62,730 bases of DNA, filler included, from Basidiobolus ranarum (GCA_040143965.1; 36 parts of 36 records of this genome joined end to end with filler, not necessarily neighbours in it), one strand, 5' to 3'; counted from the whole stretch's first letter, positions 7,003 through 50,652 are shown. The notes: generated by a model not told the origin, from the letters alone. Numbers and translations: made by a program.

Positions 7003-8048
7003 TGGTCAAATGGCACAAAGCTAATTGTAGGACCAAATAAGTGTTGATTTTTCCTGAGACGAGGATCTCGTTTTAGCTCCTCGCTCCGATAGCTTTGGTG
7101 TTTTAATCCGCATTGGACTTCGTGTGATACCTGCTCGATCAATGATGTAAGGCTCATGGCTGATTTTACAGTGATTCGGATAGGTATAACATTTGATGTC
7201 ATGCCAGGGATATGTCGAATTTCGCCAAAGCGAGCCTTAACTGGGAAGCCTAAAGTGACCTGATCAGCGCCAGTCCAACGGTGAATATATACAGCTATAA
7301 CAGCAATCCAAGCATAGATCAAGTGACGTGGGTCAGAGGCAAGAGAGGAGGCAGACTGAGGAGAGAAATGAATCGTCTGACAAATAGGCAAGTGTGTAGA
7401 GACAGCTTTTTTACTTGTCAGTGTTGCAAGCTCAGGCCAATTCTTACAGTAGTTTAGCCAATAGTCCTGATCTATTGTAAATTGAGTCGAGGCACGATAA
7501 TCAAGATCACTCTGGAGTAAGGTGGATAGGGGCTTCATTAAGCACTTGGCAGTAGTGGTATCATTAACCAGTGCACTATATATCTCAGCGGCGCGTTGCA
7601 AAATCAGTACACCACTATACCCATCAAATAGAATATGATGTGCGCACTGATACCAAAGATATTGGTCTTTTGCTACCTTTAGCAGGGTATATCTAACCTT
7701 CAGGCCATATTGAAGATTTATTGGCTGTGCACAATCAGCTCTCATCCAGGCTTCCGCGGCTTCTCGAGGATTAGGGTTAGTGCTGACGTCGATCAAGGGC
7801 AGTGACCAGTTGAGCGGACCAACGAACTGTTCTATGCCATTTTCTCCATTAACAAATTGAAGTCGTGTACATTCGGCTTCCATTAGTACTTGCAATAAGG
7901 CTCTCTCGAACAACGCCCTATCAATGAAACCAGGAATTTCTGCGTACTGAGCAATATTATAGATAGCGCTTTCGGGGTTGAGTTGTTGTGCCAGCCATAT
8001 TTCAGTTTGCCCAGAGGATAAGGGATACTTTTTTTGGTATGAATCCAT
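7003..8048 (-). CDS. Non-ribosomal peptide synthetase, N-terminal (starter-type) condensation domain, 3' truncated by contig end
   Basis: Intronless frame of about 348 codons with YPLSSGQTEIWLAQQLNPESAIYNIAQY, the catalytic HHILFDG motif, PGMTSNVIPIR and HQSYRSEEL. Confidence 0.93.
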
Positions 8049-8188
8049 TCTTTTCTGAATGCAGTTGTATGAACAAATAATCTATAGAAAGTCAAGGTAA
8101 CGAGATTTTTGTGTGATGCACGATCACCTAGCAATGATTTGCACAGTGCTGTAAATAATGGTTGAACCAAATGGACGGTTCATTGTAA

Positions 8189-10502: not shown

Positions 10503-10692
10503 CTATGTATTCCTTGCTCAGACCTCAGTCTGATCAATGCCAGTTATCAATAAAGATTCTGGCCAAAGTATCTTCCTTGTCCAGTCTTGACTTGTCTTGT
10601 CTTGCCTTGTCTTGTGGTCTACACCCAAGTACTCTCCTGCCTTCTAGCCTCTTGTCATTGTTTCCAGTCCTTGTCCAGCTCCTTATTGTGAT
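10503..10692 (+). repeat. Gypsy-type LTR, 3' part
   Basis: Matches the reverse complement of 42212-42390 and also 59353-59392 (end TTATTGTGACA). Confidence 0.8.
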
Positions 10693-11033
10693 GCAGAAAT
10701 CAAAAGGGGAGTGATGTAGCTTCTGGAGCTGAGCAAAATAACTTGTGTAAACTTCATTATATTAGGCCAATATAAGAACAAGTTAATATAGCCACAGCTG
10801 AAAAGATAGACTGGAAAATCTGGCATAGGAGATTTGGCCATCTAGGAGCTGAAAATAAGGGATATTTAATCAAAACCAAGATGGTTTTGGGACTAAACTT
10901 TTTAAATCCACCAGATCTGGAGCCATGTGAAGGTTGTCTATATAGTAGGTAACACAGACAGCCATCTGTGGGCTTTGGAATAAGCAAAATTCATCAAAAT
11001 GTGGGCCAAATACACTCAGATCTGTGTGGCCCA
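10693..11033 (+). mobile_element. Copia GAG-pre-integrase fragment
   Basis: WKIWHRRFGHLGAE...CEGCLY...HSDLCGP. Homologous to 45630-45965. Confidence 0.85.
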
Positions 11034-12015
11034 CCCTAACAAAAATACAATCAATTTGATCCAGATTGGATCAACCCTCCAAAATAGCAAAACTGGCAGA
11101 GAACCATCTCAATATTGGTTGCTTGCATTCTGCCAGGGATTTTGATGGTGTGATGGCAGTTTTTTGACCATATTTTGATGTTATTCATACATGTTAAAAT
11201 CTTGATCCTCAAATTTGGCATGTGTTAGTCAAAATCCACCAGTTTTTGCAAAAAAATAGTTTTTGAATGGCAAATTACGGGGGGAACTGCTATAGAAATT
11301 CAAATTAATATTCATGCCTTTATTTTGATACTTTAGGCTTTGTATTCCAGCCATAATGAGAATCAAAAAATGTAAGAATCTTGTTGTGTTTAGTCTCTAC
11401 ATACACACATACTTGACTGATTAGATAAAACTCAACAACCTCAATATGCTTTACCAGCAAACTCATAGTTGAAAAATTGCCAAACATCAGAAATTTTGAA
11501 AAGCACTGACACTAGGCTAATAGCTGACTTTTGTTACCATTCACAATGAGAATAAGCTCTTGGATTTTGCCAAATTTCCATAAAGAATTCAGCCAATATA
11601 TCCCCAACTTGGAGTCAACAAATGTCCTGCCACAAGTAGATGTGTCATTGCTAGACTAGATTACCTCATGGCTAAAACAATAATACTGCATATCTTGATC
11701 TATCTCATTAAGAAGTCTGTCTTGCAGCATTCCTAAAAATACTGTCAAATTATCACACAAGCAAATTACTCTGATTATAGAGGTACTTAGTCTGTGTCCA
11801 TTGATTGGGCTTTGTTGCTGTTATTGTGCTCAAACAATGTGAAAACCCATGGGCACATTGAAAATAGCCCTTTGTTGGCAGATTAATATACTCTGGAGTC
11901 TCCTTAACCCATTGCATTACATCCATCACTGATTTTGCTGATATATTATTAATTAGATTAGCATACTGTAATACTGACAATTTCACACAGAGCATTGTTT
12001 CACCACAGGTGTGCC
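11034..12015 (-). mobile_element. CACTA-like element end B (TIR CCCTAACAAAAAT) plus transposase 3' region
   Basis: The TIR interrupts the copia integrase right after DLCGP. The same end occurs at 18760, 31629(-), 58247 and 60562(-). Confidence 0.85.
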
Positions 12016-12017
12016 AT

Positions 12018-12140
12018 AGTTGTTTTTGGGTGTAAGCAGCAAGTATAACTGCAATATCCTAAGGGTTCTGTGAGGTGTCCAAAGGGTGCAATAACCATGG
12101 TTGAATAACTCTGGGATGTACTGTAATATGGGTCTGTCTC
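12018..12140 (-). repeat. Unclassified dispersed repeat (second copy at 47754-47880)
   Basis: About 125 bp inverted match ending at the terminus G(A/G)GACAGACCCATATTACAG. Confidence 0.7.
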
Positions 12141-12253
12141 TTGCCTCTTGGGNNNNNNNNNNNNNNNNNNNNNNNNNNNNNNNNNNNNNNNNNNNNTTAA
12201 TTAATTAANNNNNNNNNNNNNNNNNNNNNNNNNNNNNNNNNNNNNNNNNNNNT

Positions 12254-13367: not shown

Positions 13368-13901
13368 ATGGTCAACGTACGCATCTTCACCTTAGGATCT
13401 CTTCTCGCTATTGTTTTGGCTGTGCCAATCACTGATGGCCAGAGTGTTGATGTTTCCAACCGCTATATCGTAAAAATTAAGGAGGGAGCTGATTCTAACA
13501 AAGGTATGCGTGCGTTGTTATGGCAATAACAGTATGAGAAGCAGTACTGATTTGTGTAAATAACTATATTAGTCGACCAATTTTTGAAGACAAAACTTGA
13601 TCAATACAACCGTGGTCGCAGTGGCAACAACTCCCTTAAAAACGAGCTAAAGAACAAGTTCGCCTTGGAGAACTTCAATGCTTATGCTGGTACACTCAGT
13701 CAAGCCCTTGTCAGTGAACTCAAAACCAATGGTGATGTCGAGTATGTTGAGGCCGAGCAAGTGTTCACTGTCTCTGGAGTTCAAAACAGCCCACCAAGCT
13801 GGGGTCTTCCTAGAGTCTCTCAGCGTGCATTGAATGCCAATGCCCCATACAACTATCCCGACTCAGCTGGTGAAGGGGTTGATGTGTACATCATCGACAC
13901 C
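13368..13901 (+). CDS. Secreted subtilisin-like protease (signal peptide, I9 prodomain, start of S8 domain), 3' truncated
   Basis: Exons 13368-13503 and 13573-13901 with a 69-bp GT-AG intron. Reads MVNVRIFTLGSLLAIVLA, RYIVKIK, VEYVEAEQ, PPSWGLPRVSQR and GEGVDVYIIDT. TATAAAA lies near 13290. Confidence 0.94.
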
Positions 13902-22643: not shown

Positions 22644-23153
22644 NNNNNNNNNNNNNNNNNNNNNNNNNNNNNNNNNNNNNNNNNNNNTTAATTAATTAAN
22701 NNNNNNNNNNNNNNNNNNNNNNNNNNNNNNNNNNNNNNNNNNNGGCTAAAGTAATTGAAAATTCCGTTCTTCATGATATCCAAAGTCTAATTACTTTGAG
22801 ACTGTTTACTCGAATGTTGCTTCGTCAATACTGAAAACGTAAATCTCGATGAACTTAGTCAAGATTACGAAAAATTCACCATATCAGCAAAATTACGCTC
22901 CCATCTCTGTTGGAGAAATGAAGCAGAAATGAAGCAGAAATTTCGCTTACTAATTTTTTTGCCTATGACTAATCGTCATTGGATAAACAGTAAAGAAAAT
23001 TGGAAGTTGCCATTGGCTTACTAATAATCAGTGATTGTTTCCGATTTAAGCAGTAGAACAACATACCAATACGTATGCTCTGATGGAGTATAAAGCCATT
23101 ACTCTTACTTACCATTACCTTTATTCACAACTATATTTCTACCATTTTCACAT

Positions 23154-24167
23154 ATGAAAGTAATTTTGCAACAAAAGGGGGGAGACATTTCCGTCCTCGA
23201 AGAGAGCACCCTTCCTAAACCATCCCCTACGGGATCCGACATACTGGTCCGTAACCTCGCTGTTTCTGTAAATCCGGTCGATTACAAAGTACGCTCTGGA
23301 GTTTTCATTCAAACGTATCCTTTGGTCATAGGTTGGGACGGAGCTGGCGTGGTTGAAGCAGTTGGTGAGAATGTTAAACAGTACAAAGTGGGTGATGAAG
23401 TTATCTATTCTGGGTCTGTAATACGTTCAGGTTCCAACTCGGAGTACACCCTGGTCGACGAGCGAATTGTAGGTAGAAAGCCTAAATCTTTGTCTTTTAC
23501 TGATGCGGCAGGTTTGCCTTTGACAGCTCTTACCGCATGGGAAGCGCTCGTGGAACAGCTTGCGATCCCTGTTCCAGAAAGCAAGTCCTCTAAAAATCCT
23601 AAATCGATCTTGATCATCAACGGGGCTGGTGGTGTTGGCTCACTAGCCACACAATTCGCGTCCAAAGTTTTGAATCTCTCCAATGTTGTTGCTACCGCCT
23701 CTCGCCCGGAGACAATTGATTGGTGTAAAAAAATGGGTGCAACACATGTGATTAATCATCGCGAAGATCTCAAACAACAAATAACTCAACTTGGGTTGAC
23801 TGTGGACTACGTATTCATTTGCCATTCTACCGCAAATTACCTCCCGATAGTCCAAGATATTATTAAACCATTTGGACGTATTGTTACCATCGTCGAGGTG
23901 GAAAGCCCCTTACCTTTTACTGACATGTCTAAGTCTTTAAGCTTTTCCTGGGAGTTTATGTTTGCAAAGAGCATGCACAATCACGATATGATTTCACAGT
24001 CTGTGATCTTAAATCGTGTTGCTGATCTTGTTGATTCAGGCGTGATTCTACCAACTGTTACCGAAACGTTGGACTTTTCGTTGGAAGCTCTTCGTGCAGC
24101 TCACAAGAAGGTTGAGGATGGTGTAGTTATAGGAAAAATTGTGTTAGATATGGAAAATTGGGTCTAG
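23154..24167 (+). CDS. Zinc-type alcohol dehydrogenase-like / NADPH:quinone oxidoreductase (MDR superfamily), complete and intronless
   Basis: 337 aa with AVSVNPVDYKVR, GWDGAGVVEAVG, LPLTALTAWEAL, the Rossmann motif INGAGGVGS, KSLSFSWEFMF and IGKIVL. TATAAA lies near 23089. Confidence 0.95.
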   Translation: MKVILQQKGGDISVLEESTLPKPSPTGSDILVRNLAVSVNPVDYKVRSGVFIQTYPLVIGWDGAGVVEAVGENVKQYKVGDEVIYSGSVIRSGSNSEYTLVDERIVGRKPKSLSFTDAAGLPLTALTAWEALVEQLAIPVPESKSSKNPKSILIINGAGGVGSLATQFASKVLNLSNVVATASRPETIDWCKKMGATHVINHREDLKQQITQLGLTVDYVFICHSTANYLPIVQDIIKPFGRIVTIVEVESPLPFTDMSKSLSFSWEFMFAKSMHNHDMISQSVILNRVADLVDSGVILPTVTETLDFSLEALRAAHKKVEDGVVIGKIVLDMENWV

Positions 24168-25989: not shown

Positions 25990-26487
25990 GTTGGTATTAA
26001 TTTCCAATATCCTGTATAAAGGTAGTCTGAGTAATATTGTATATTAGTTTACACTTTTCAATTTTCAAATACTATAAATTAAACCAGTGTTCTCGAGACC
26101 ATTTTCAGAAGGATTATTTTGGATATACCCTAAGTATANNNNNNNNNNNNNNNNNNNNNNNNNNNNNNNNNNNNNNNNNNNNTTAATTAATTAANNNNNN
26201 NNNNNNNNNNNNNNNNNNNNNNNNNNNNNNNNNNNNNNTAGTCCTATTAAACATTAAACAATATATAGAACATATTCAATTTTTTAAAACCTCAGTGTCT
26301 AATTCTCATATATAAATTTTGTCCAAAACACTTCCATATCCCCTGAACACTTTTATTACATATAAGGCTAATACATCTAGGTTTGTCTTATCTAGCCTGA
26401 AATAAATACATTAGTTGGCATTACTCTTTTGGAATTTGAGTATTTCTAGATTAGCATTTATCTAGCTATTCTAAGCTCTTTGCAATT

Positions 26488-26669
26488 GGACTTGTTCAAT
26501 TGAGCCAGGATTTATCAGACCTTGGATTAATATGATGAAATATATGTATTTGAAATTAGTTGTGCCTGAAGATGATGGCTAGAGCCAAACTGTGCCATTT
26601 AAACTTTAGAAAACTTTATCTAATATGCTATATACAGCCAAATCTGGCACTATTGCAGACAACAAGTCC
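26488..26669 (-). mobile_element. 182-bp MITE, TSD ATT
   Basis: ATT|GGACTTGTTC...CAACAAGTCC|ATT, in reverse orientation relative to the copy at 19727. Confidence 0.9.
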
Positions 26670-26672
26670 ATT

Positions 26673-27884
26673 GTTTTAAGCCTTATAGAACTTTCCAGAA
26701 ACTAAAAACTTTTTTAGGGTTTTCTAGGTCCACAAATCCATCTGGCTGCTCCATTTAGATCTCCTCAGCAAGCTACCAATTCCAAAACAGCAATTTCATC
26801 ATTCATATGTGCTAAATATACTGATATTTTGCTGTAATTGCTGAAATCAATATAAATGAATTGAACTCTGGTATAAGAGCAAAAGTTTCTGTATAATATA
26901 TTTCTGGTGTTTGAGAACAGCCTTTGGCTACTTGTCTAACATTGTACCTTCCTATATTGCCATCAGAGTGGTAATTAACTATTAACACCCATTGGCAACC
27001 AGTTGATTTTCTATCATCAGGTAAGTTGGTAAGACCTAAGTCTGATATCAAACAGTGCATGGTACTCATCAGCCATTGCAGTTCTCCAAAATTTTGTATG
27101 AGAGAAATTTGGGCCTCTTTAACAAACTGAGGCTCATGTATATGAGCTGTGTAGGCATGGGCCCAATGCTGGGACTTAATGATGTAGTAATCAGGGCTAT
27201 TGCTAATGCATTTTTATATCCTAACATGGAATAAAGTCATTATAACTTCTGGCATCATATTGGTCACTTTAGTGGGCAAGATATTTGTTGACAGGTCAAC
27301 AGGAATGCCATTTACTTCATGTTATGGTTTGAATCAATTTAAATGATTGGGTCATGAGAAAATTGATCAAATGTAGACTGATATTTGGTTGAGGTTTTGA
27401 CACATGCAATGCATCCAAAGATCCTCAAATGTTTTCCATCAGGTTTAGTTCCAAACCAAGCTTCATATGGTGTAGAGATAGACAGACTTATAGTAAAACT
27501 GCAATTATTCATATATACAGCTATAGCAACAGATTTGGCCTAATAGGTATAAGATAAAATTTTGTTCATTTATCATATATTTTGCAATTCCTATTATAGT
27601 CCGGTTAGCTCTTTCAGCAACTCCATTTTGTTGAGGTGAATAGGGGGCAGTGGCTTCTTTCTTAATTCCTTGAACTTTGCAAAAGTGCTGTACATTCCCA
27701 CTCAACTAATTATTTTGTATTTCTCTTAAACCTAACTTATATCTTAATAATTCAAATTGTGCTTTAGCTAAAGGCTTGGTTAAGTTATTAGCTATCACTT
27801 CTCCAGTAGGGCAATAGACAAGCTTAATTATATCATTCTCTATTGCTTCTCTAACAAAATGATGCATATTATCTATATGTTTTG
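26673..27884 (-). mobile_element. Copia integrase/RT fragments plus a nested RNase H end with PPT
   Basis: APYSPQQNGVAERANRT and RKSTGCQWVL...RQVAKGCSQ. The stretch 27697-27884 matches the RNase H/PPT at 61092-61200. Confidence 0.85.
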
Positions 27885-33222: not shown

Positions 33223-33600
33223 GACTGTGGTCGTGGTGCTTGGATCAGCGATAGCCAAGGTAATTCATGGTGTGATCCTTACAAGAGCTGGCAAATCGTT
33301 TACAACTATGATCTCACTGCCAACATGACCAAGGAAGAAGGTAAATTGGTCCTTGGTGGTGAAGTTGGACTCTGGGCTGAGCAGATTGATGGTATCAACA
33401 TTGACAGTGTCTTGTGGCCTCGTGGTTCAGCTGCTGCCGAAGTTTTGTGGTCCGATATCAAACTTGCTGATGGTACTATCCGCAAGACTGGTGATGTATT
33501 CCCTCGTATTAATGAACAAAGAGCACGTTTAGTTGATCGTGGTATTGGAGCTGTTCCTTTGCAACCATTGTGGTGTGCTCGCAACCCACGTAATTGCTAG
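33223..33600 (+). CDS. Beta-N-acetylhexosaminidase (GH20), C-terminus
   Basis: DCGRGAW...SWCDPYKSWQIVY, VLGGEVGLWAEQID, LWPRGSAAAEVLWS and PLQPLWCARNPRNC*. Confidence 0.95.
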   Translation, partial: DCGRGAWISDSQGNSWCDPYKSWQIVYNYDLTANMTKEEGKLVLGGEVGLWAEQIDGINIDSVLWPRGSAAAEVLWSDIKLADGTIRKTGDVFPRINEQRARLVDRGIGAVPLQPLWCARNPRNC

Positions 33601-34167
33601 ATATTCAACACTGGCAACAGTGAAATAGTCAATTAATCACATTAGCTTATACAAAGTACAGTTATAATTTTGAATATTTAATTAATAAATTCAATCTGCG
33701 CAATTGATCATGAATAATCGGAAAAAATTTGGTATCAAAATTTCTATTACGACACTACGAATGATATATGAAGGTAGTAAATCCTAGAGAGTTGGCAGTG
33801 ATATTTCAACTTCAATGCTTAGTCCGATGAATTGTTTACCATATTTGACTACTTGAAGTATTAATATATTCGACGCCTATGCAGTTAATCGCGATAGAGA
33901 ACAGCCTCTATTCCGTATTGATCAAAAGATTTTAGAAGTAACAATGAAGCTGTGTTACCTTTTCCCATACGTGACTTGGAGCAACGTCCTTAAGTACAAT
34001 AAAAATTGAATATTCCCAAACTAGTTTGATCAAACCTCAAAGAAATCGGTATCACGTTACTCATAGGCAGTATATTTGAAATAGGCACAAAAATAATGAT
34101 ATCATTGCATATAAAAGTGTATGTAGGAATCTCTTAGTACCGTATCTTACGACTACACTAATTAATT

Positions 34168-34867
34168 ATGGTTGCCATTAAGCTTCTTACTACCATCTCA
34201 CTTTTGGCTGCCACTTCGATGGCTTGGGTTTGGCCATTGCCTGCGAAGATGGATGTTGGCCATAACATCATTCGCTTGAGCAGAAATGAACTTGATATTT
34301 CTATCAAAGCCCCAGCAGGAGCTGATATTCTCGAGAGAGCTGTCCATCGTTACAAGAAGTTGATCTTCACCAAAGGTGAGTTCAGTTCCCTCCTTAACCC
34401 AGTCGAGAAGACAGTGTTCCCCATTCCTACTACTTCCGTCCCCGTTCATCAGCTTGCACCCAAGGGCAAGTACCCTACACTGACTGGACTCAGCATTCAG
34501 GTCAGTGGCCACAACACCAAACTCAATCTCGACACCGATGAATCCTACACTATCGATGTTCCTGCACGTGGTGGCAAGGCTACCATCAAGGCCAAGAGTG
34601 TGTACGGAGCTCTCCGTGGACTCGAATCATTCTCCCAATTGGTCAAGTGGACTGCTGAGGCCAATCAGTACCGCATTCCATTCGCTCCAGTCTCTATTTC
34701 TGACAAGCCAGTCTTCGTCCATCGTGGTGTGATGATTGATTCATCCCGTAACTTCCTCAAGATCGAAGATATCAAGCGTACTCTAGATGCTATGTCTTAC
34801 AACAAGCTCAATGTTCTTCACTGGCATATCATTGATCAACACAGTTTCCCACTTAAAACCAAGACCT
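34168..34867 (+). CDS. Beta-N-acetylhexosaminidase (GH20), N-terminal part, secreted
   Basis: Signal peptide followed by VWPLP, DESYTI, YGALRGLESFSQL, HRGVMIDSSRNF and NKLNVLHWHIIDQHSFP. TATAAAA lies near 34110. Confidence 0.95.
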
Positions 34868-40200: not shown

Positions 40201-40575
40201 CCCTGGAGTCTGCTTAACCCATAGCTATACATCTGTCACTGATTTTGCTGATACATTACTAATCAAGTTAGCATATGGTACTACTGATGATTTCACACAG
40301 AGTATCATTTCACAGCAGTTGTGCTCCATTGGGAACTCCCAGAATGTATAGCCAGTGCCTATAATCTCTAAGCATTGTGAAAGATGCAGCAGGGAATTTA
40401 ATGAATACCAGCATAGATTCAGTCTATCTTCTTTAAGTCTTTAATAAAGTTTCCATATCCAATTACAAAATCTTAGCATATTTGCTCTATCTGCCTGAGA
40501 TCTGCCAATGTGAGTTGATGCTGTAAGAATATATTAACAGTATTGACAAATAGCTATACATGTCTACATATATGT
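40201..40575 (-). mobile_element. CACTA-like transposase C-terminal region
   Basis: SLLHLSQCLEIIGTGYTFWEFPMEHNC, a variant of the H-L...GP...W-FPMER motif. Confidence 0.85.
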
Positions 40576-40592
40576 TTAGGCAATGTTAATTT

Positions 40593-41126
40593 TGGTTAAA
40601 GTATTTGGGAGTGTTTTGGAAGTGGTTTAGAGAATTGGAGGAATTGGTGGTCTTCATCTGTTGATTTATTGTGTAGAAAGTTGACATAAGTACTTTTGTC
40701 AAGATGTAAGCAAAGTAACATGTGGAATGTGTTAAGGAAGGTCCCAGGAACATGTGTGCAAAGTTTGGGGCTTCTAGCACAAGTTTGAAAAATCTATATA
40801 TCTGAGAACTTCAAAGTTGATAAAAATATTCTAAGTAAATTCCATTTGAGAGTGGACTTGTTCTCTGTGATAGTGCCAGATCATGCTGTATATATCATAT
40901 TGGATAAATTATTCTAAAATTTGCATGGCACAATTTGGCACTATGCATCACCCTCTGACATGATCAATTTTAATCATACTTACTCTAATATATTGATCCA
41001 AGGTCCAATAAATCCTGGCCCAATGGAACAAGCCCAATAGTTGATAATATGTTAGTGAGTTATAAGATAACTAAGTACTAAGTTATATATGATCATATAG
41101 GTGTTTAGGCAATGCTAATTTCAACA
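40593..41126 (-). repeat. Copia 3' LTR family C with a MITE insertion
   Basis: On the minus strand the PPT GAGAGAGAG is followed by TGTTGAAATTAGC...CTTTAAC. Confidence 0.8.
40854..41035 (+). mobile_element. 182-bp MITE, TSD AAT (left copy AGT)
   Basis: GGACTTGTTC...GAACAAGCCC. The empty site TTGAGAATAACTG is at about 43851. Confidence 0.9.
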
Positions 41127-41139
41127 CTCTCTCTCAACT

Positions 41140-41843
41140 AAATAGTCAGATACACTAATCTAAATAAAGGTCTAAATTTCTGTCTAGATGATGGTTTGGT
41201 TAATAAATCAGCAATCATTTCTTCTGTAGAACAATAATATAAGTCAATAAACATATTCTCTATAGTCTCTCTAATGAAGTGATGCTCAATCTCTATGTGT
41301 TTGCTTCTATTATGAAATGTGGGATTTTTAGCTAATTGTGTACAATTTGATTATCTTGAAATATTGTGGTTGGTGAACCTTGGGAATAAGCCAAATCTGT
41401 TAAGAGTTTTCTTAACCATAATGCTTCTTTTGTTGCTTCACAGGCAGCCATGTATTCAGCTTCTGTTGTTGAAAATGCTATGGTAGGTTTTTTCTTTAAA
41501 TTCCAAGAAATAGCTCCATTAGAGCAAGGAAATCAGTATCCTGTAATAGATCTCCAGTCTTCAATATCTCTTCCCCAATTTGCATGAATATCCCATCAGA
41601 TCACAGTATCATCCAGAATATGTGTATTTAAGCATGGATCCACAGTACCTTTCAAATATCCAAAAATGCCCTCAACTGCTATGATTTGATCAGATCCATA
41701 ATCTTGAAGATATTGGCACATAACTCCTACAGAATATGCAATATCTGGCCATATTCGAACCATAATAAACATCAAACCATCAACCATAGATTGATAAGGA
41801 AATTTCTGGCTTTCATTTCTATCTAAAAACATCTGATTTGAGC
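41140..41843 (-). mobile_element. Copia family C RT-RNase H, degenerate
   Basis: FPYQSMVDGLMF...PDIAYSVG, STTEAEYMAA, KHIEIEHHFIRE and MIADLLTKP. Confidence 0.9.
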
Positions 41844-48911: not shown

Positions 48912-49267
48912 ACCGACATTTGCTCCAATGTTTACACCACCCGATTGACTACCTCCATTGCCTTTGACACCACTACTACTACCTACGCCTGGTAACTTGA
49001 CGTCAGTATCAATGCTGACTCTACTTTTACCACCACTACCTTTATCACCGCCATCTACACCCGATAGATTAATATCAGCGCCAATATTGATTCCACGTTT
49101 ATCATCACTGGCTTTGCCACCAACGCTTACACCCAGTAGATTAACATTGGCACCAATATCGACTCCGATTTGGCCTCCGCTGTCTCTATCTCCACCACTG
49201 CCGCCTACATCAGGCAAGTTGATGCTGGCATCATTAGTAATACCTCCATTACTCAGTACTAGTGACA
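48912..49267 (-). CDS. Gly/Val-rich pseudo-repeat protein exon, 3' truncated
   Basis: Repeating G(V/I)(N/D)IGA(N/D)(V/I)NL(P/L/S)GV units separated by Gly/Ser linkers. A branch-like TACTGAC, a T-tract and an AG acceptor precede it. Confidence 0.65.
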
Positions 49268-49805
49268 CTTATAGTGCTCATAATTAAAGCGACAAAAAAA
49301 CTTAGGGTCAGTAAATGGTCTCACACATTTAGCAATGGTCAATACAAAAGGTTTTGGTGGGATGCACAAAAAATCTGAACTGAATTGTATTCATTTTAGA
49401 ATTTATTCATGATTTATACAAGCCAAATCAAAGATGGTAATAGTAAAAGTTTGCTACTATACTTACACTTAACTTTGGATATTTTGCATGCCTGAGTGCT
49501 ACATAAAGTATGAATTAATCTTGCAAGTACTGGAAACCTTTCTGACTTACACTACACTCTTCACCATTGAATCGTAGTTCCATGCTCAATAATATATGAA
49601 ATAGTTAGAGGTTTACACATAGCGATAATAGTTATAATAAGAATGATACACTTCAACACAGTCTTCAATCAACAGTAAGCCTGTAATATGTTCAACGACG
49701 GATATTTCGGGGCATGTGCGCATTGTTCGGCAATATTATGATTATTACTCGGTGGGTTCTTTCTATTTGGCTTACGTTTCTACTGCTTTTATGCCCTTTT
49801 AGGGA

Positions 49806-50552
49806 TTACCCTTCAAATTTCACTTTTGATGACTTTAACTTTGATATCATACCCTTTGGCACCAACTCTGTGCTCATCAAATGAAGACTCCCAAATGAAT
49901 CCAAAAATCGTTGCCCATAATGGCAAACTATCCATTCCCAATAAGCACTTTTTGCGCCTGGAAAACTACTATCCATGTGACCCTTGAGCCGGTAGATGTT
50001 GGCAGTCACTTCTTTTGAAAACACTGGTGGTTCAGGATATGTGAGCGTCAAGAGTTTTCTATACATTTGGAACCACTGGACAAGCCTAAATTCACGGCCT
50101 TCACAATATTCATCAAAGGAAAGTAGTCTCCTCACCTTGTTCCGTTCTTGGTCTTGCTCCTCAACAAGAGTACTTACGAGTTTTCTCTTCTCTCTAGAGT
50201 GTTCGCCTTCCAACGCATCCCATGCACTATCTTTGTAACGGTAAACAAGTTGTCTTGCTTTATCGTATGCTTTCTTCTGTTGATCGTACAATTTCACATC
50301 CTCCTCGGGTAATTGACTAAATCCATCACTAGATCCTGTTCTCTCCAATGCTTTTCGAAGCGCCAAAATTTCAATGAAAGGATTCTTGAGGCCAAGGCCA
50401 CCGGCATTAATTGGCCAGTATACCCAAGCGTCTGGAATGACAGTATCTTGCAATGAAGGTATGCGTGCTTTAATGATCGTAGACAGGTATGTCAAAGCGT
50501 CACCATTCTGTGAACGAAAAATTTTGTGCTCGATCATCTTTAGAGCCTCAAT
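49806..50552 (-). CDS. rvt: rvt-family cellular reverse-transcriptase-related protein, C-terminal region (5' truncated)
   Basis: Open frame of about 248 codons with IPDAWVYWPINAGGLGLKNPF, SFDEYCEGRE, YWEWIVCHYG...FGSL and LVPKGMI...KVKFEG*. I recall this motif series from the C-terminus of fungal RVT proteins. The frame is intact and not CpG-depleted. Confidence 0.8.
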   Translation of the reverse strand: MEALKMIEHKIFRSQNGDALTYLSTIIKARIPSLQDTVIPDAWVYWPINAGGLGLKNPFIEILALRKALERTGSSDGFSQLPEEDVKLYDQQKKAYDKARQLVYRYKDSAWDALEGEHSREKRKLVSTLVEEQDQERNKVRRLLSFDEYCEGREFRLVQWFQMYRKLLTLTYPEPPVFSKEVTANIYRLKGHMDSSFPGAKSAYWEWIVCHYGQRFLDSFGSLHLMSTELVPKGMISKLKSSKVKFEG

Positions 50553-50652
50553 NNNNNNNNNNNNNNNNNNNNNNNNNNNNNNNNNNNNNNNNNNNNTTAA
50601 TTAATTAANNNNNNNNNNNNNNNNNNNNNNNNNNNNNNNNNNNNNNNNNNNN

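What the first reader, a model, noticed from the sequence alone, without database searches (positions are those of the whole stretch)
49806..50552. Intact rvt-type domesticated reverse transcriptase gene (C-terminus)
Seen: an unbroken, CpG-normal frame in non-repetitive context, unlike every TE-derived RT in the window. Known: rvt genes are a patchily distributed class of non-mobile cellular RT-related genes (Neurospora, bdelloid rotifers, some bacteria) with terminal-transferase-like activity and an unresolved biological role. The motifs IPD..(Y/F)WP...GGL.L.NPF, SF.EY...RE, YW.W....YG.....FG.L and L.P.GM......V.(W/F) match my recollection of their C-terminus. Inference: this is a functional rvt in an early-diverging fungus. 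The contig break inside the gene may point to a near-identical second copy.
Basis: partly seen in the sequence, partly recalled or inferred. Interest (0 to 1): 0.75.

Follow-up and report, generated by a model that had tools for sequence, protein, structure and literature searches.

The report
C-terminal piece of an rvt gene
This is the last third of a known kind of non-mobile, reverse-transcriptase-like host gene (rvt) of a Basidiobolus-type fungus, cut short only because a small assembly contig ends there; it is an ordinary new member of a known family.

Summary
Window 49806-50552 (minus strand) is an open 248-codon frame ending in TAA. It runs up to the end of a 1641-bp contig; the window is 36 short contigs joined by N linkers. 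The peptide has no Pfam hit. It aligns end to end with the C-terminus of a family of 800-1000-aa RT-related proteins: a 912-aa Basidiobolus ranarum paralogue (67% identity), a Philodina roseola "reverse transcriptase-like protein" (E 4e-23), many fungi, and bacteria (Chloroflexota, Micromonosporaceae). The spread over bacteria and eukaryotes, the HDD core and the large insertion before motif A (seen in the paralogues) fit the rvt class. Its contig has normal CpG content, like the host-gene contigs and unlike every transposon contig in the window. Differences from the paralogue avoid conserved columns, which indicates purifying selection. The RT core is not in the window. A 656-aa B. ranarum model stops 8 residues before this fragment starts and is probably its missing 5' part. 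No support was found for a near-identical second copy. The deposited gene model probably mis-splices the 3' end. Verdict: a known kind, of modest interest.

The parts
49806..50552 (-). Open frame of 248 codons plus TAA stop. It corresponds to the end of the last thumb helix plus the whole C-terminal domain of an rvt-class RT-related protein (P0001). Its 5' side is cut by the contig end.
   Evidence: frame. (67% identity to residues 663-911 of the 912-aa paralogue P0002). (E 4e-23 to residues 683-908 of the 909-aa Philodina roseola protein). (P0002 model: helix 655-673 precedes the C-terminal domain).
50376..50438 (-). Most conserved block of the C-terminal domain, IPDAWVYWPINAGGLGLKNPF (residues 39-59).
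   Evidence: family consensus IPDGWxYWPxxxGGLGLxNPF, with P47, G51, G52 and L53 invariant in 40 sequences; the block is also kept in the bacterial member P0115.
50136..50324 (-). Variable long helical hairpin (residues 77-139) between the conserved blocks.
   Evidence: helices 77-114 and 120-139; this stretch is gappy and poorly conserved across the family; only generic helical-hairpin matches, best Z 7.5.
50091..50120 (-). Conserved block SFDEYCEGRE (residues 145-154).
   Evidence: consensus FxSFEEYxxxRE, R153 nearly invariant.
49884..49943 (-). Conserved block YWEWIVCHYGQRFLDSFGSL (residues 204-223).
   Evidence: consensus YxxWxxxxYGxxxxxxFGxL, F220 and G221 nearly invariant; kept in bacterial P0115.
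49809..49865 (-). Conserved C-terminal tail LVPKGMISKLKSSKVKFEG (residues 230-248), directly followed by the TAA stop at 49806-49808.
   Evidence: consensus LxPxGMV........KW reaches the last residues of the family, P232 invariant.
49796..49852 (-). 57-nt GT...AG interval that the deposited gene model (P0154, 262 aa) must treat as an intron. Splicing it removes the conserved last 14 residues. Probably a mis-prediction.
   Evidence: P0154 departs from the plain frame after ...ELVPKG; its alternative tail is encoded at 49693-49793, with a stop at 49690-49692; the unspliced tail matches the family. The intron boundaries are my reading of the sequence.
48912..50552 (.). The 1641-bp contig that carries the fragment. 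It is one of 36 contigs of 1639-1651 bp concatenated in the window.
   Evidence: the 90%-identity cluster mate of the window's product sits on a 1641-bp contig.
50553..50652 (.). Artificial joiner (44 N, TTAATTAATTAA, 44 N). What follows it is an unrelated contig.

Best explanation
The frame is the 3' third of a cellular rvt-class gene, the reverse-transcriptase-related, non-mobile genes described by Gladyshev and Arkhipova, in a Basidiobolus-type fungus.

Shown:
- The peptide is colinear to its last residue with the C-terminal domain of a family found in fungi, bdelloid rotifers, a springtail and bacteria.
- It keeps every invariant family residue.
- Its contig has host-gene-like CpG content.
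- It has diverged from its 912-aa paralogue almost only at family-variable positions, so it is under purifying selection.

Inferred:
- The gene is whole in the genome and only the assembly is broken.
- Its 5' two thirds are probably the 656-aa model K7432_009384, which carries an N-terminal helical region, an RT fingers/palm with an insertion of about 120 residues before motif A, YRIHDD, and most of the thumb.

Inferred from the literature on other family members, not tested here:
- The complete ~910-aa protein would work like Neurospora RVT: a stress-induced polymerase that adds nucleotides without a template (terminal-transferase-like).
- It may be protein-primed and multimeric.
- The all-alpha C-terminal domain encoded here would pack on the thumb and palm through its conserved blocks, while its variable helical hairpin projects outward.
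For: Family placement:
- 67% identity over 100% of the fragment to B. ranarum K7432_014290 (912 aa), aligned to its residues 663-911.
- 398 proteins with E <= 1e-3 among 1.84 billion representatives. In the long hits listed, the match sits at the extreme C-terminus.
- E 4e-23 to residues 683-908 of the 909-aa Philodina roseola 'reverse transcriptase-like protein', which itself matches the paralogue at E 1e-123 over 99% of its length.
- A bacterial member, an Anaerolineae MAG protein, matches the fragment at E 8.3e-10 in the library search, is named, and gives BLASTP E 5e-10. Five more bacterial loci were found in Chloroflexota and Micromonosporaceae, and two of them (L001, L002) pass Pfam RVT_1 at 41 and 50 bits against a cut-off of 29.6.
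- In a 33-row tree the fragment joins the two Basidiobolus proteins (SH-aLRT 100) inside a eukaryote clade that is split from bacteria (SH-aLRT 100).

RT nature of the family:
- RVT_1 is found in 13 of 40 alignment members; only 25 of the 40 are long enough to hold a core.
- A profile search of the PDB hits DRT9, group II intron and retron RTs.
- The paralogue model (pLDDT 83, pTM 0.82) matches R2, LINE-1 ORF2p, DRT9, group II intron RT, Prp8 and TERT.
- D420, R505 and D508 are nearly invariant.

Host-gene behaviour:
- The contig's CpG o/e is 0.70. All 10 ORFs with transposon domains lie in contigs of 0.11 or less. All 5 ORFs with ordinary enzyme domains lie in contigs of 0.63 or more.

Constraint:
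- Identity to the paralogue is 30/30, 33/36, 37/52 and 52/100 in columns of falling family conservation. Fisher p is 6e-9 for the upper two classes against the lower two.

Split gene:
- K7432_009384 (656 aa) aligns to paralogue residues 1-654 at 80% identity and then stops; the fragment starts at residue 663.
- The ratio of C-part to N-part identity is 0.84. This lies within the family range of 0.65-1.04, median 0.80.

Function of relatives:
- N. crassa RVT is non-essential, strongly induced when translation is inhibited, and has terminal transferase activity (PMC3520738, passage read).
- RVT genes have a large loop 2a and are the only RT group found in both bacteria and eukaryotes (PMC5718144, passages read).
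Against: - The RT core of this very copy is not in the window: tblastn with the full-length paralogue finds only the C-terminal part. Intactness of the whole gene is therefore unproven.
- No DNA of the paralogues could be fetched, so no dN/dS was computed. The constraint test is a protein-level proxy.
- The link between K7432_009384 and this fragment rests only on complementary coverage.
- The founding paper (PMC3251080) and the 2018 biochemistry paper were not held. That the Philodina entry is one of the published rvt genes, and the details of protein priming and multimerisation, therefore rest on recall and on a title seen in reference lists.
- No Neurospora crassa sequence was compared directly.
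- Expression was not testable.
Confidence: 0.9

Rival explanations
1. The fragment is a genuinely truncated or dead rvt copy in the genome (a 3' remnant), not the end of an intact gene split by the assembly.
For: Only the last 248 codons are present and nothing upstream can be seen. The deposited annotation treats it as a short stand-alone 262-aa protein starting at an internal Met. B. ranarum has at least one other full-length copy, so loss of this one would be tolerable.
Against: The frame is open right to the contig's last base. Not one of the 30 most conserved columns differs from the paralogue, and the differences pile up in variable columns. A 656-aa model ends 8 residues before the fragment begins. 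All 36 contigs of the window are short, so truncation by the assembly is the default expectation.
Confidence: 0.07
2. The contig broke here because a near-identical second copy of the gene collapsed the assembly graph.
For: Two gene models break at nearly the same codon: 654 in K7432_009384 and 663 here. That would fit a short stretch shared with another copy. The genome holds paralogues.
Against: The closest copy found is 67% identical in this region and 80% in the N-terminal part, which is far from near-identical. The 90%-identity cluster of the window's product holds only two entries, both on a 1641-bp contig. Breaks every ~1.6 kb are the norm in this part of the assembly.
Confidence: 0.1
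3. It is the C-terminus of a mobile retroelement RT (LINE, Penelope-like or other) rather than a host gene.
For: The paralogue's best solved structural neighbours are R2 and LINE-1 ORF2p. The window is rich in retrotransposon debris.
Against: Those structural matches have only 10-14% identity and cover the generic RT fold; DRT9, group II intron RT, Prp8 and TERT also match. No endonuclease, integrase, gag or RNase H family turned up in full-length members: RVT_1 and one Nucleoporin_FG hit were the only families in 40 members. Named fungal homologues are listed on a single contig each, many of them hundreds of kb to megabases long. The CpG content is that of host genes, while every transposon fragment in the window is CpG-depleted. 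The family also occurs in bacteria next to ordinary genes such as P450, MerR and PTS EIIC.
Confidence: 0.02

Closest known systems
rvt genes (Gladyshev & Arkhipova 2011): Neurospora crassa RVT and bdelloid rotifer rvt
   Same: - Same protein family by sequence. The fragment aligns end to end with the C-terminus of the Philodina roseola RT-like protein (E 4e-23), and its paralogue aligns over 99% of its length (E 1e-123).
- Same size class (about 850-1000 aa).
- HDD catalytic motif and a large insertion before motif A in the paralogues.
- Found in both bacteria and eukaryotes.
- Signs of purifying selection.
   Different: - Only the last 248 residues of this copy are visible.
- The host is a Basidiobolus-type fungus with at least two diverged copies (67-80% identity), whereas the literature passage I read speaks of single-copy genes.
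- No direct comparison with N. crassa RVT was possible.
Bacterial rvt proteins (Yushenova & Arkhipova 2018; only the title was seen, in reference lists)
   Same: The two conserved C-terminal blocks (IPxAWxYWPxxAGGLGL and YWxWIxxxYGxxxLDxFG...LVP) are shared with an Anaerolineae protein. Related genes occur in Ktedonobacteraceae, Anaerolineaceae, Catellatospora and Virgisporangium.
   Different: The bacterial proteins form a separate clade (SH-aLRT 100), are shorter (about 800 aa), and match the fragment only in two stretches rather than along its whole length.
AbiK / Abi-P2 / DRT9-type protein-primed, template-independent RT-like polymerases of bacteria
   Same: This concerns what it may work like: an RT-like palm combined with an all-helical C-terminal region and untemplated synthesis. 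DRT9 is the best PDB sequence-profile match to the family core (9ioa_A, E 2.4e-7) and a strong structural match (9vma_A).
   Different: The C-terminal domain shows no detectable similarity: Foldseek gave 0 matches at E <= 1e-3, and VIA-align gave only generic hairpins with Z of 7.5 or less. Those are prokaryotic phage-defence enzymes, and no defence role is known for rvt.
Non-LTR retrotransposon RTs (R2, LINE-1 ORF2p)
   Same: They are the best solved structural neighbours of the full-length paralogue model (8gh6_A at E 1.6e-11; 9hdo_A, 8uw3_A).
   Different: - Identity is only 10-13%.
- The family has no endonuclease domain.
- It is not CpG-depleted like the transposons of this genome.
- The sequence hits of the fragment are all to the rvt-like family, not to LINEs.

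Membership tests
rvt (RT-related cellular genes) | Sequence homology to founding members (bdelloid rotifer rvt, Neurospora crassa RVT) | tested here: met
   The fragment matches the Philodina roseola 'reverse transcriptase-like protein' G3KGX1 at E 4e-23, colinear to the last residue. The paralogue matches it at E 1e-123. That this entry is one of the published rvt genes is recalled, not shown by a call. N. crassa RVT itself was not compared; the nearest Sordariales member found is Staphylotrichum.
rvt (RT-related cellular genes) | RT core with catalytic aspartates (HDD in motif C) | not testable with these tools
In the paralogues it is present: YRIHDD in P0002 and P0156, D420, R505 and D508 nearly invariant, and an RT fold.
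rvt (RT-related cellular genes) | [quoted passage not shown] | not testable with these tools
   This could not be tested for this copy. In the paralogue model, about 120 residues (295-413, partly low pLDDT) lie between the finger hairpin strands 278-294 and the motif-A strand 414-421. The motif assignment is my own inference.
rvt (RT-related cellular genes) | Conserved C-terminal extension beyond the thumb | tested here: met
   There are 248 residues colinear with the family C-terminus. All 5 invariant and 3 nearly invariant columns are kept.
rvt (RT-related cellular genes) | Representation in both bacteria and eukaryotes | tested here: met
   The family of the fragment includes fungi, rotifers and a springtail, and Chloroflexota and Actinomycetota. 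The two domains separate cleanly in the tree.
rvt (RT-related cellular genes) | Non-mobile host gene: no endonuclease or integrase, low copy number, under purifying selection | tested here: met
   No transposon domains were found in 40 members. CpG o/e is 0.70, like host-gene contigs and unlike all transposon contigs. Substitutions against the paralogue avoid conserved columns. Copy number in this genome is known only from three deposited models. dN/dS was not computable.
rvt (RT-related cellular genes) | Terminal-transferase-like activity and induction when translation is inhibited | not testable with these tools
   Known for N. crassa RVT from a meeting report (PMC3520738). No expression or biochemical data could be obtained here.
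LINE / other mobile RT | Best sequence matches to mobile-element RTs, with associated endonuclease, gag or RNase H | tested here: not met
   No such match appears among the hits, and no such Pfam family. The only structural resemblance is to the generic RT fold.

The most novel reading that the evidence does not exclude
Basidiobolus has duplicated its rvt gene, and one of two distinct bdelloid-rotifer rvt lineages (Adineta/Rotaria) is the sister of the Basidiobolus clade rather than of the other rotifer gene (Philodina). A springtail gene likewise sits with Mucoromycota. This would mean that a 'domesticated' RT-like host gene has moved horizontally between early-diverging fungi and soil or freshwater animals. 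The patchy distribution of rvt would then reflect transfer, not only loss.
Probability: 0.15. Interest if true: 0.45.

Novelty: new member of a known kind. Interest (0 to 1): 0.2.

Why it matters
The biological role of rvt genes remains unresolved, and each well-placed member helps. This one adds little on its own.
- It shows the family in a Basidiobolus-type fungus, with at least two diverged copies.
- It shows that the deposited models are fragmentary and probably mis-spliced at the 3' end.
- It gives a confident all-alpha model of the C-terminal domain that has no solved counterpart.
- In this genome, CpG content separates host genes from transposons cleanly and places the RT-like gene on the host side. 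That is a simple, reusable test for domestication.

Tried and rejected
- **Family and structure searches on the fragment.** Pfam gave only two sub-threshold chance hits. A PDB sequence search gave nothing below E 1.5.
- **Fold searches with the fragment model.** Foldseek against the PDB gave 0 matches at E <= 1e-3. VIA-align wide gave only generic helical hairpins over residues 72-171, best Z 7.5, rmsd 6.8, 104 residues aligned. No fold assignment was made for the C-terminal domain.
- **Looking for the rest of the gene.** tblastn of the full-length paralogue against the window found no N-terminal part. No whole genome is held for this window.
- **Bacterial relatives.** The search for related loci with the 25-sequence alignment failed because no stretch was conserved enough. 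I then used the single bacterial protein P0115.
- **Papers not held.** The PNAS 2011 rvt paper and the 2018 Current Genetics paper were not available.
- **Paper searches.** 'Basidiobolus' with 'reverse transcriptase' gave 20 papers, 10 of them listed, none on rvt by title. Other searches for recent rvt work gave only citations of the two papers above, apart from the passages used.
- **Homodimer test.** It never ran, so nothing is claimed about self-association.
- **Neighbouring ORF.** The Gly-rich ORF next to the gene gave no Pfam hit and no Atlas hit.
- **Contamination.** I considered contamination by a rotifer or bacterium and rejected it, because the fragment groups with Basidiobolus proteins.

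Full report
**What the window is.** The 62,730-base window is not one stretch of chromosome. It consists of 36 contigs of 1639-1651 bp in descending size order. Each is separated from the next by 44 N, TTAATTAATTAA and 44 N. The finding lies in the contig at 48912-50552 (1641 bp). Whatever stands beyond 50552 in the window is unrelated.

**The observation.** On the minus strand, 49806-50552 reads as 248 codons followed by TAA. The frame is open to the very last base of the contig. From the contig's base composition, such an open frame has a chance of about 1.5e-8.
- CpG o/e is 0.69 in the ORF and 0.70 in the contig.
- By contrast, 23 of the 36 contigs have CpG o/e of 0.17 or less while GpC stays near 1.
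- I scanned 36 of the 37 frames of at least 110 codons against Pfam; the rvt frame itself had been scanned.
- All 10 frames with transposon domains (copia-type gag, RVT_2, integrase, Pol_BBD, SH3_retrovirus, Transposase_21) lie in 9 contigs with CpG o/e of 0.11 or less.
- All 5 frames with ordinary enzyme domains (NRPS condensation, Inhibitor_I9, Zn-dependent dehydrogenase, GH20 twice) lie in 4 contigs with CpG o/e of 0.63 or more.

**What it is.** The peptide (P0001) has no Pfam family and no PDB relative by sequence.
- A search restricted to longer proteins found a 912-aa Basidiobolus ranarum protein, K7432_014290 (P0002). It is 67% identical over the whole fragment, aligned to its residues 663-911.
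- An exhaustive HMMER search of 1.84 billion representatives found 398 proteins at E <= 1e-3 and 83 at E <= 1e-10. In the long hits listed (800-1000 aa), the match lies at the extreme C-terminus.
- The 90%-identity cluster of the window's own product also holds a deposited protein, K7432_017915 of B. ranarum, on a 1641-bp contig.
- Named family members come from Mucoromycota, Chytridiomycota, Blastocladiomycota, Ascomycota, Basidiomycota, bdelloid rotifers (Philodina, Adineta, Rotaria) and a springtail.
- The Philodina roseola entry, called 'reverse transcriptase-like protein', matches the paralogue at E 1e-123 over 99% of its length. It matches the fragment at E 4e-23 through to the final residue.
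- The fragment also matches a bacterial protein from an Anaerolineae MAG: E 8.3e-10 in the library search, named, BLASTP E 5e-10.
- With that protein as query, five bacterial genome loci were found: Ktedonobacteraceae, Anaerolineaceae, two Catellatospora species and Virgisporangium.
- Two of these were scanned. They pass Pfam RVT_1 above its threshold and sit among ordinary genes such as P450, MerR and PTS EIIC.
- A 40-sequence alignment gives the family consensus IPDGWxYWPxxxGGLGLxNPF, FxSFEEYxxxRE, YxxWxxxxYGxxxxxxFGxL and LxPxGMV...KW. P47, G51, G52, L53 and P232 are invariant and all kept in the fragment.

**Is the family rvt?** Passages I could read describe RVT genes as domesticated RTs on a very long branch, with a big loop 2a between motifs 2 and 3. 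They are also described as the only RT group present in both bacteria and eukaryotes (PMC5718144). Bdelloid rotifers and Neurospora crassa are named as carriers (PMC3520738).
- The family found here is RT-related. RVT_1 is seen in 13 of 40 alignment members, of which only 25 are long enough to hold a core.
- A profile search of the PDB hits DRT9, group II intron and retron RTs.
- D420, R505 and D508 are nearly invariant, with YRIHDD in the Basidiobolus proteins.
- An AlphaFold model of the paralogue (pLDDT 83, pTM 0.82) matches R2, LINE-1 ORF2p, DRT9, group II intron RTs, Prp8, DRT2, G2L4 and TERT at 10-14% identity.
- About 120 residues separate the finger hairpin from the motif-A strand in that model. 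This fits a large 2a insertion, though the motif assignment is mine.
- The family spans both domains, and bacteria and eukaryotes separate with SH-aLRT 100.
- These features were met in relatives. For the window's own copy, only the C-terminal extension could be tested.
- The founding paper and the 2018 biochemistry paper were not held. The identity of the Philodina entry with a published rvt gene is therefore recalled, and no N. crassa sequence was compared directly.

**State of this copy.** In a quick IQ-TREE of 33 rows that I chose from the named hits (876 of 1749 columns kept), the fragment groups with the two Basidiobolus proteins (SH-aLRT 100).
- Identity to the 912-aa paralogue is 30/30 in the most conserved family columns. 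It then falls to 33/36, 37/52 and 52/100 as conservation drops.
- Fisher p is 6e-9 for the upper two classes against the lower two. Both copies have therefore been under purifying selection since they split. This is a protein-level proxy; no paralogue DNA could be fetched for dN/dS.
- A third deposited model, K7432_009384 (656 aa, on an 11,962-bp contig), aligns to residues 1-654 of the paralogue at 80% identity and then stops. The fragment begins at residue 663.
- The drop from 80% to 67% identity fits the family's usual ratio between C-part and N-part (0.84 here; range 0.65-1.04, median 0.80).
- I infer, at roughly 70% odds, that these are two pieces of one ~910-aa gene separated by an assembly gap of about 8 codons.
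- Nothing supports a near-identical second copy, though it cannot be excluded without reads.

**Annotation point.** The deposited 262-aa model follows the plain frame up to ...ELVPKG and then switches to a tail encoded at 49693-49793. This requires a 57-nt GT...AG intron at 49796-49852. That splice deletes the last 14 residues, which are conserved across the family. The unspliced reading is more likely correct. The model also starts at an internal Met, because the true start lies off the contig.

**Structure of the encoded part.** With the 40-sequence alignment, the fragment folds confidently (pLDDT 85.4) as an all-alpha domain. Conserved blocks flank a long, variable helical hairpin at residues 77-139. 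By alignment to the paralogue model, it starts inside the last thumb helix (helix 655-673). No solved structure resembles it beyond generic hairpins.

**How it most likely works.** This part is inference. The complete protein would be an RVT-type polymerase. According to the meeting report read, the Neurospora enzyme is dispensable for growth, strongly induced when translation is blocked, and has terminal transferase activity in vitro. For bacterial members, the title seen in reference lists names protein priming and multimerisation. The C-terminal domain encoded here would be the family-specific module that sits on the thumb. Its role (priming, oligomerisation or substrate holding) is open. 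A homodimer prediction could not be run.

**Verdict.** The item is a fragment of a known family, already deposited as a hypothetical protein. Interest is modest.

Noticed in passing
whole window; e.g. contigs 1-1651, 10503-12152, 26239-27884, 40201-41843: 23 of 36 contigs have CpG o/e of 0.17 or less (many at 0.02) with GpC o/e near 1. Every frame with a transposon domain lies in such a contig, and every frame with an ordinary enzyme domain lies in a contig of 0.63 or more. This looks like CpG-specific decay of repeats, perhaps methylation-driven deamination.
   Followed up: partly
window 49690-49852, minus strand: The deposited gene model for this fragment (262 aa) splices out a 57-nt interval and replaces the conserved last 14 residues with an unrelated 33-residue tail. 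This is probably an annotation error.
   Followed up: yes
window 48912-49268, minus strand: A glycine-rich, loosely repetitive frame of 119 codons (GxxIGANVNL-like units) runs off the other end of the same contig, downstream of the rvt stop. It has no Pfam hit and no Atlas hit, and only a weak 15-bp tandem repeat at 49021-49049.
   Followed up: partly
related proteins P0168, P0224, P0225, P0220 (not in the window): The bdelloid rotifer rvt proteins do not form one clade (AU p 1.25e-5; I named the group after seeing the tree). Adineta and Rotaria are sister to Basidiobolus (SH-aLRT 96), Philodina sits with Dikarya, and a springtail protein sits with Mucoromycota (SH-aLRT 99) (quick tree with long branches).
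   Followed up: partly
window 7005-8081 (-), 23094-24164 (+), 33223-33597 and 34162-34866 (+), 13560-13901 (+): Other contigs carry host-gene fragments: an NRPS condensation domain, a zinc-dependent alcohol dehydrogenase, a GH20 hexosaminidase and a peptidase inhibitor I9 propeptide.
   Followed up: no
L001 and L002 (bacterial loci): Bacterial rvt-like genes in a Ktedonobacteraceae MAG and in Catellatospora coxensis are flanked by ordinary genes (P450, MerR regulator, PTS EIIC). There is no visible retroelement or defence partner within 2 kb.
   Followed up: partly
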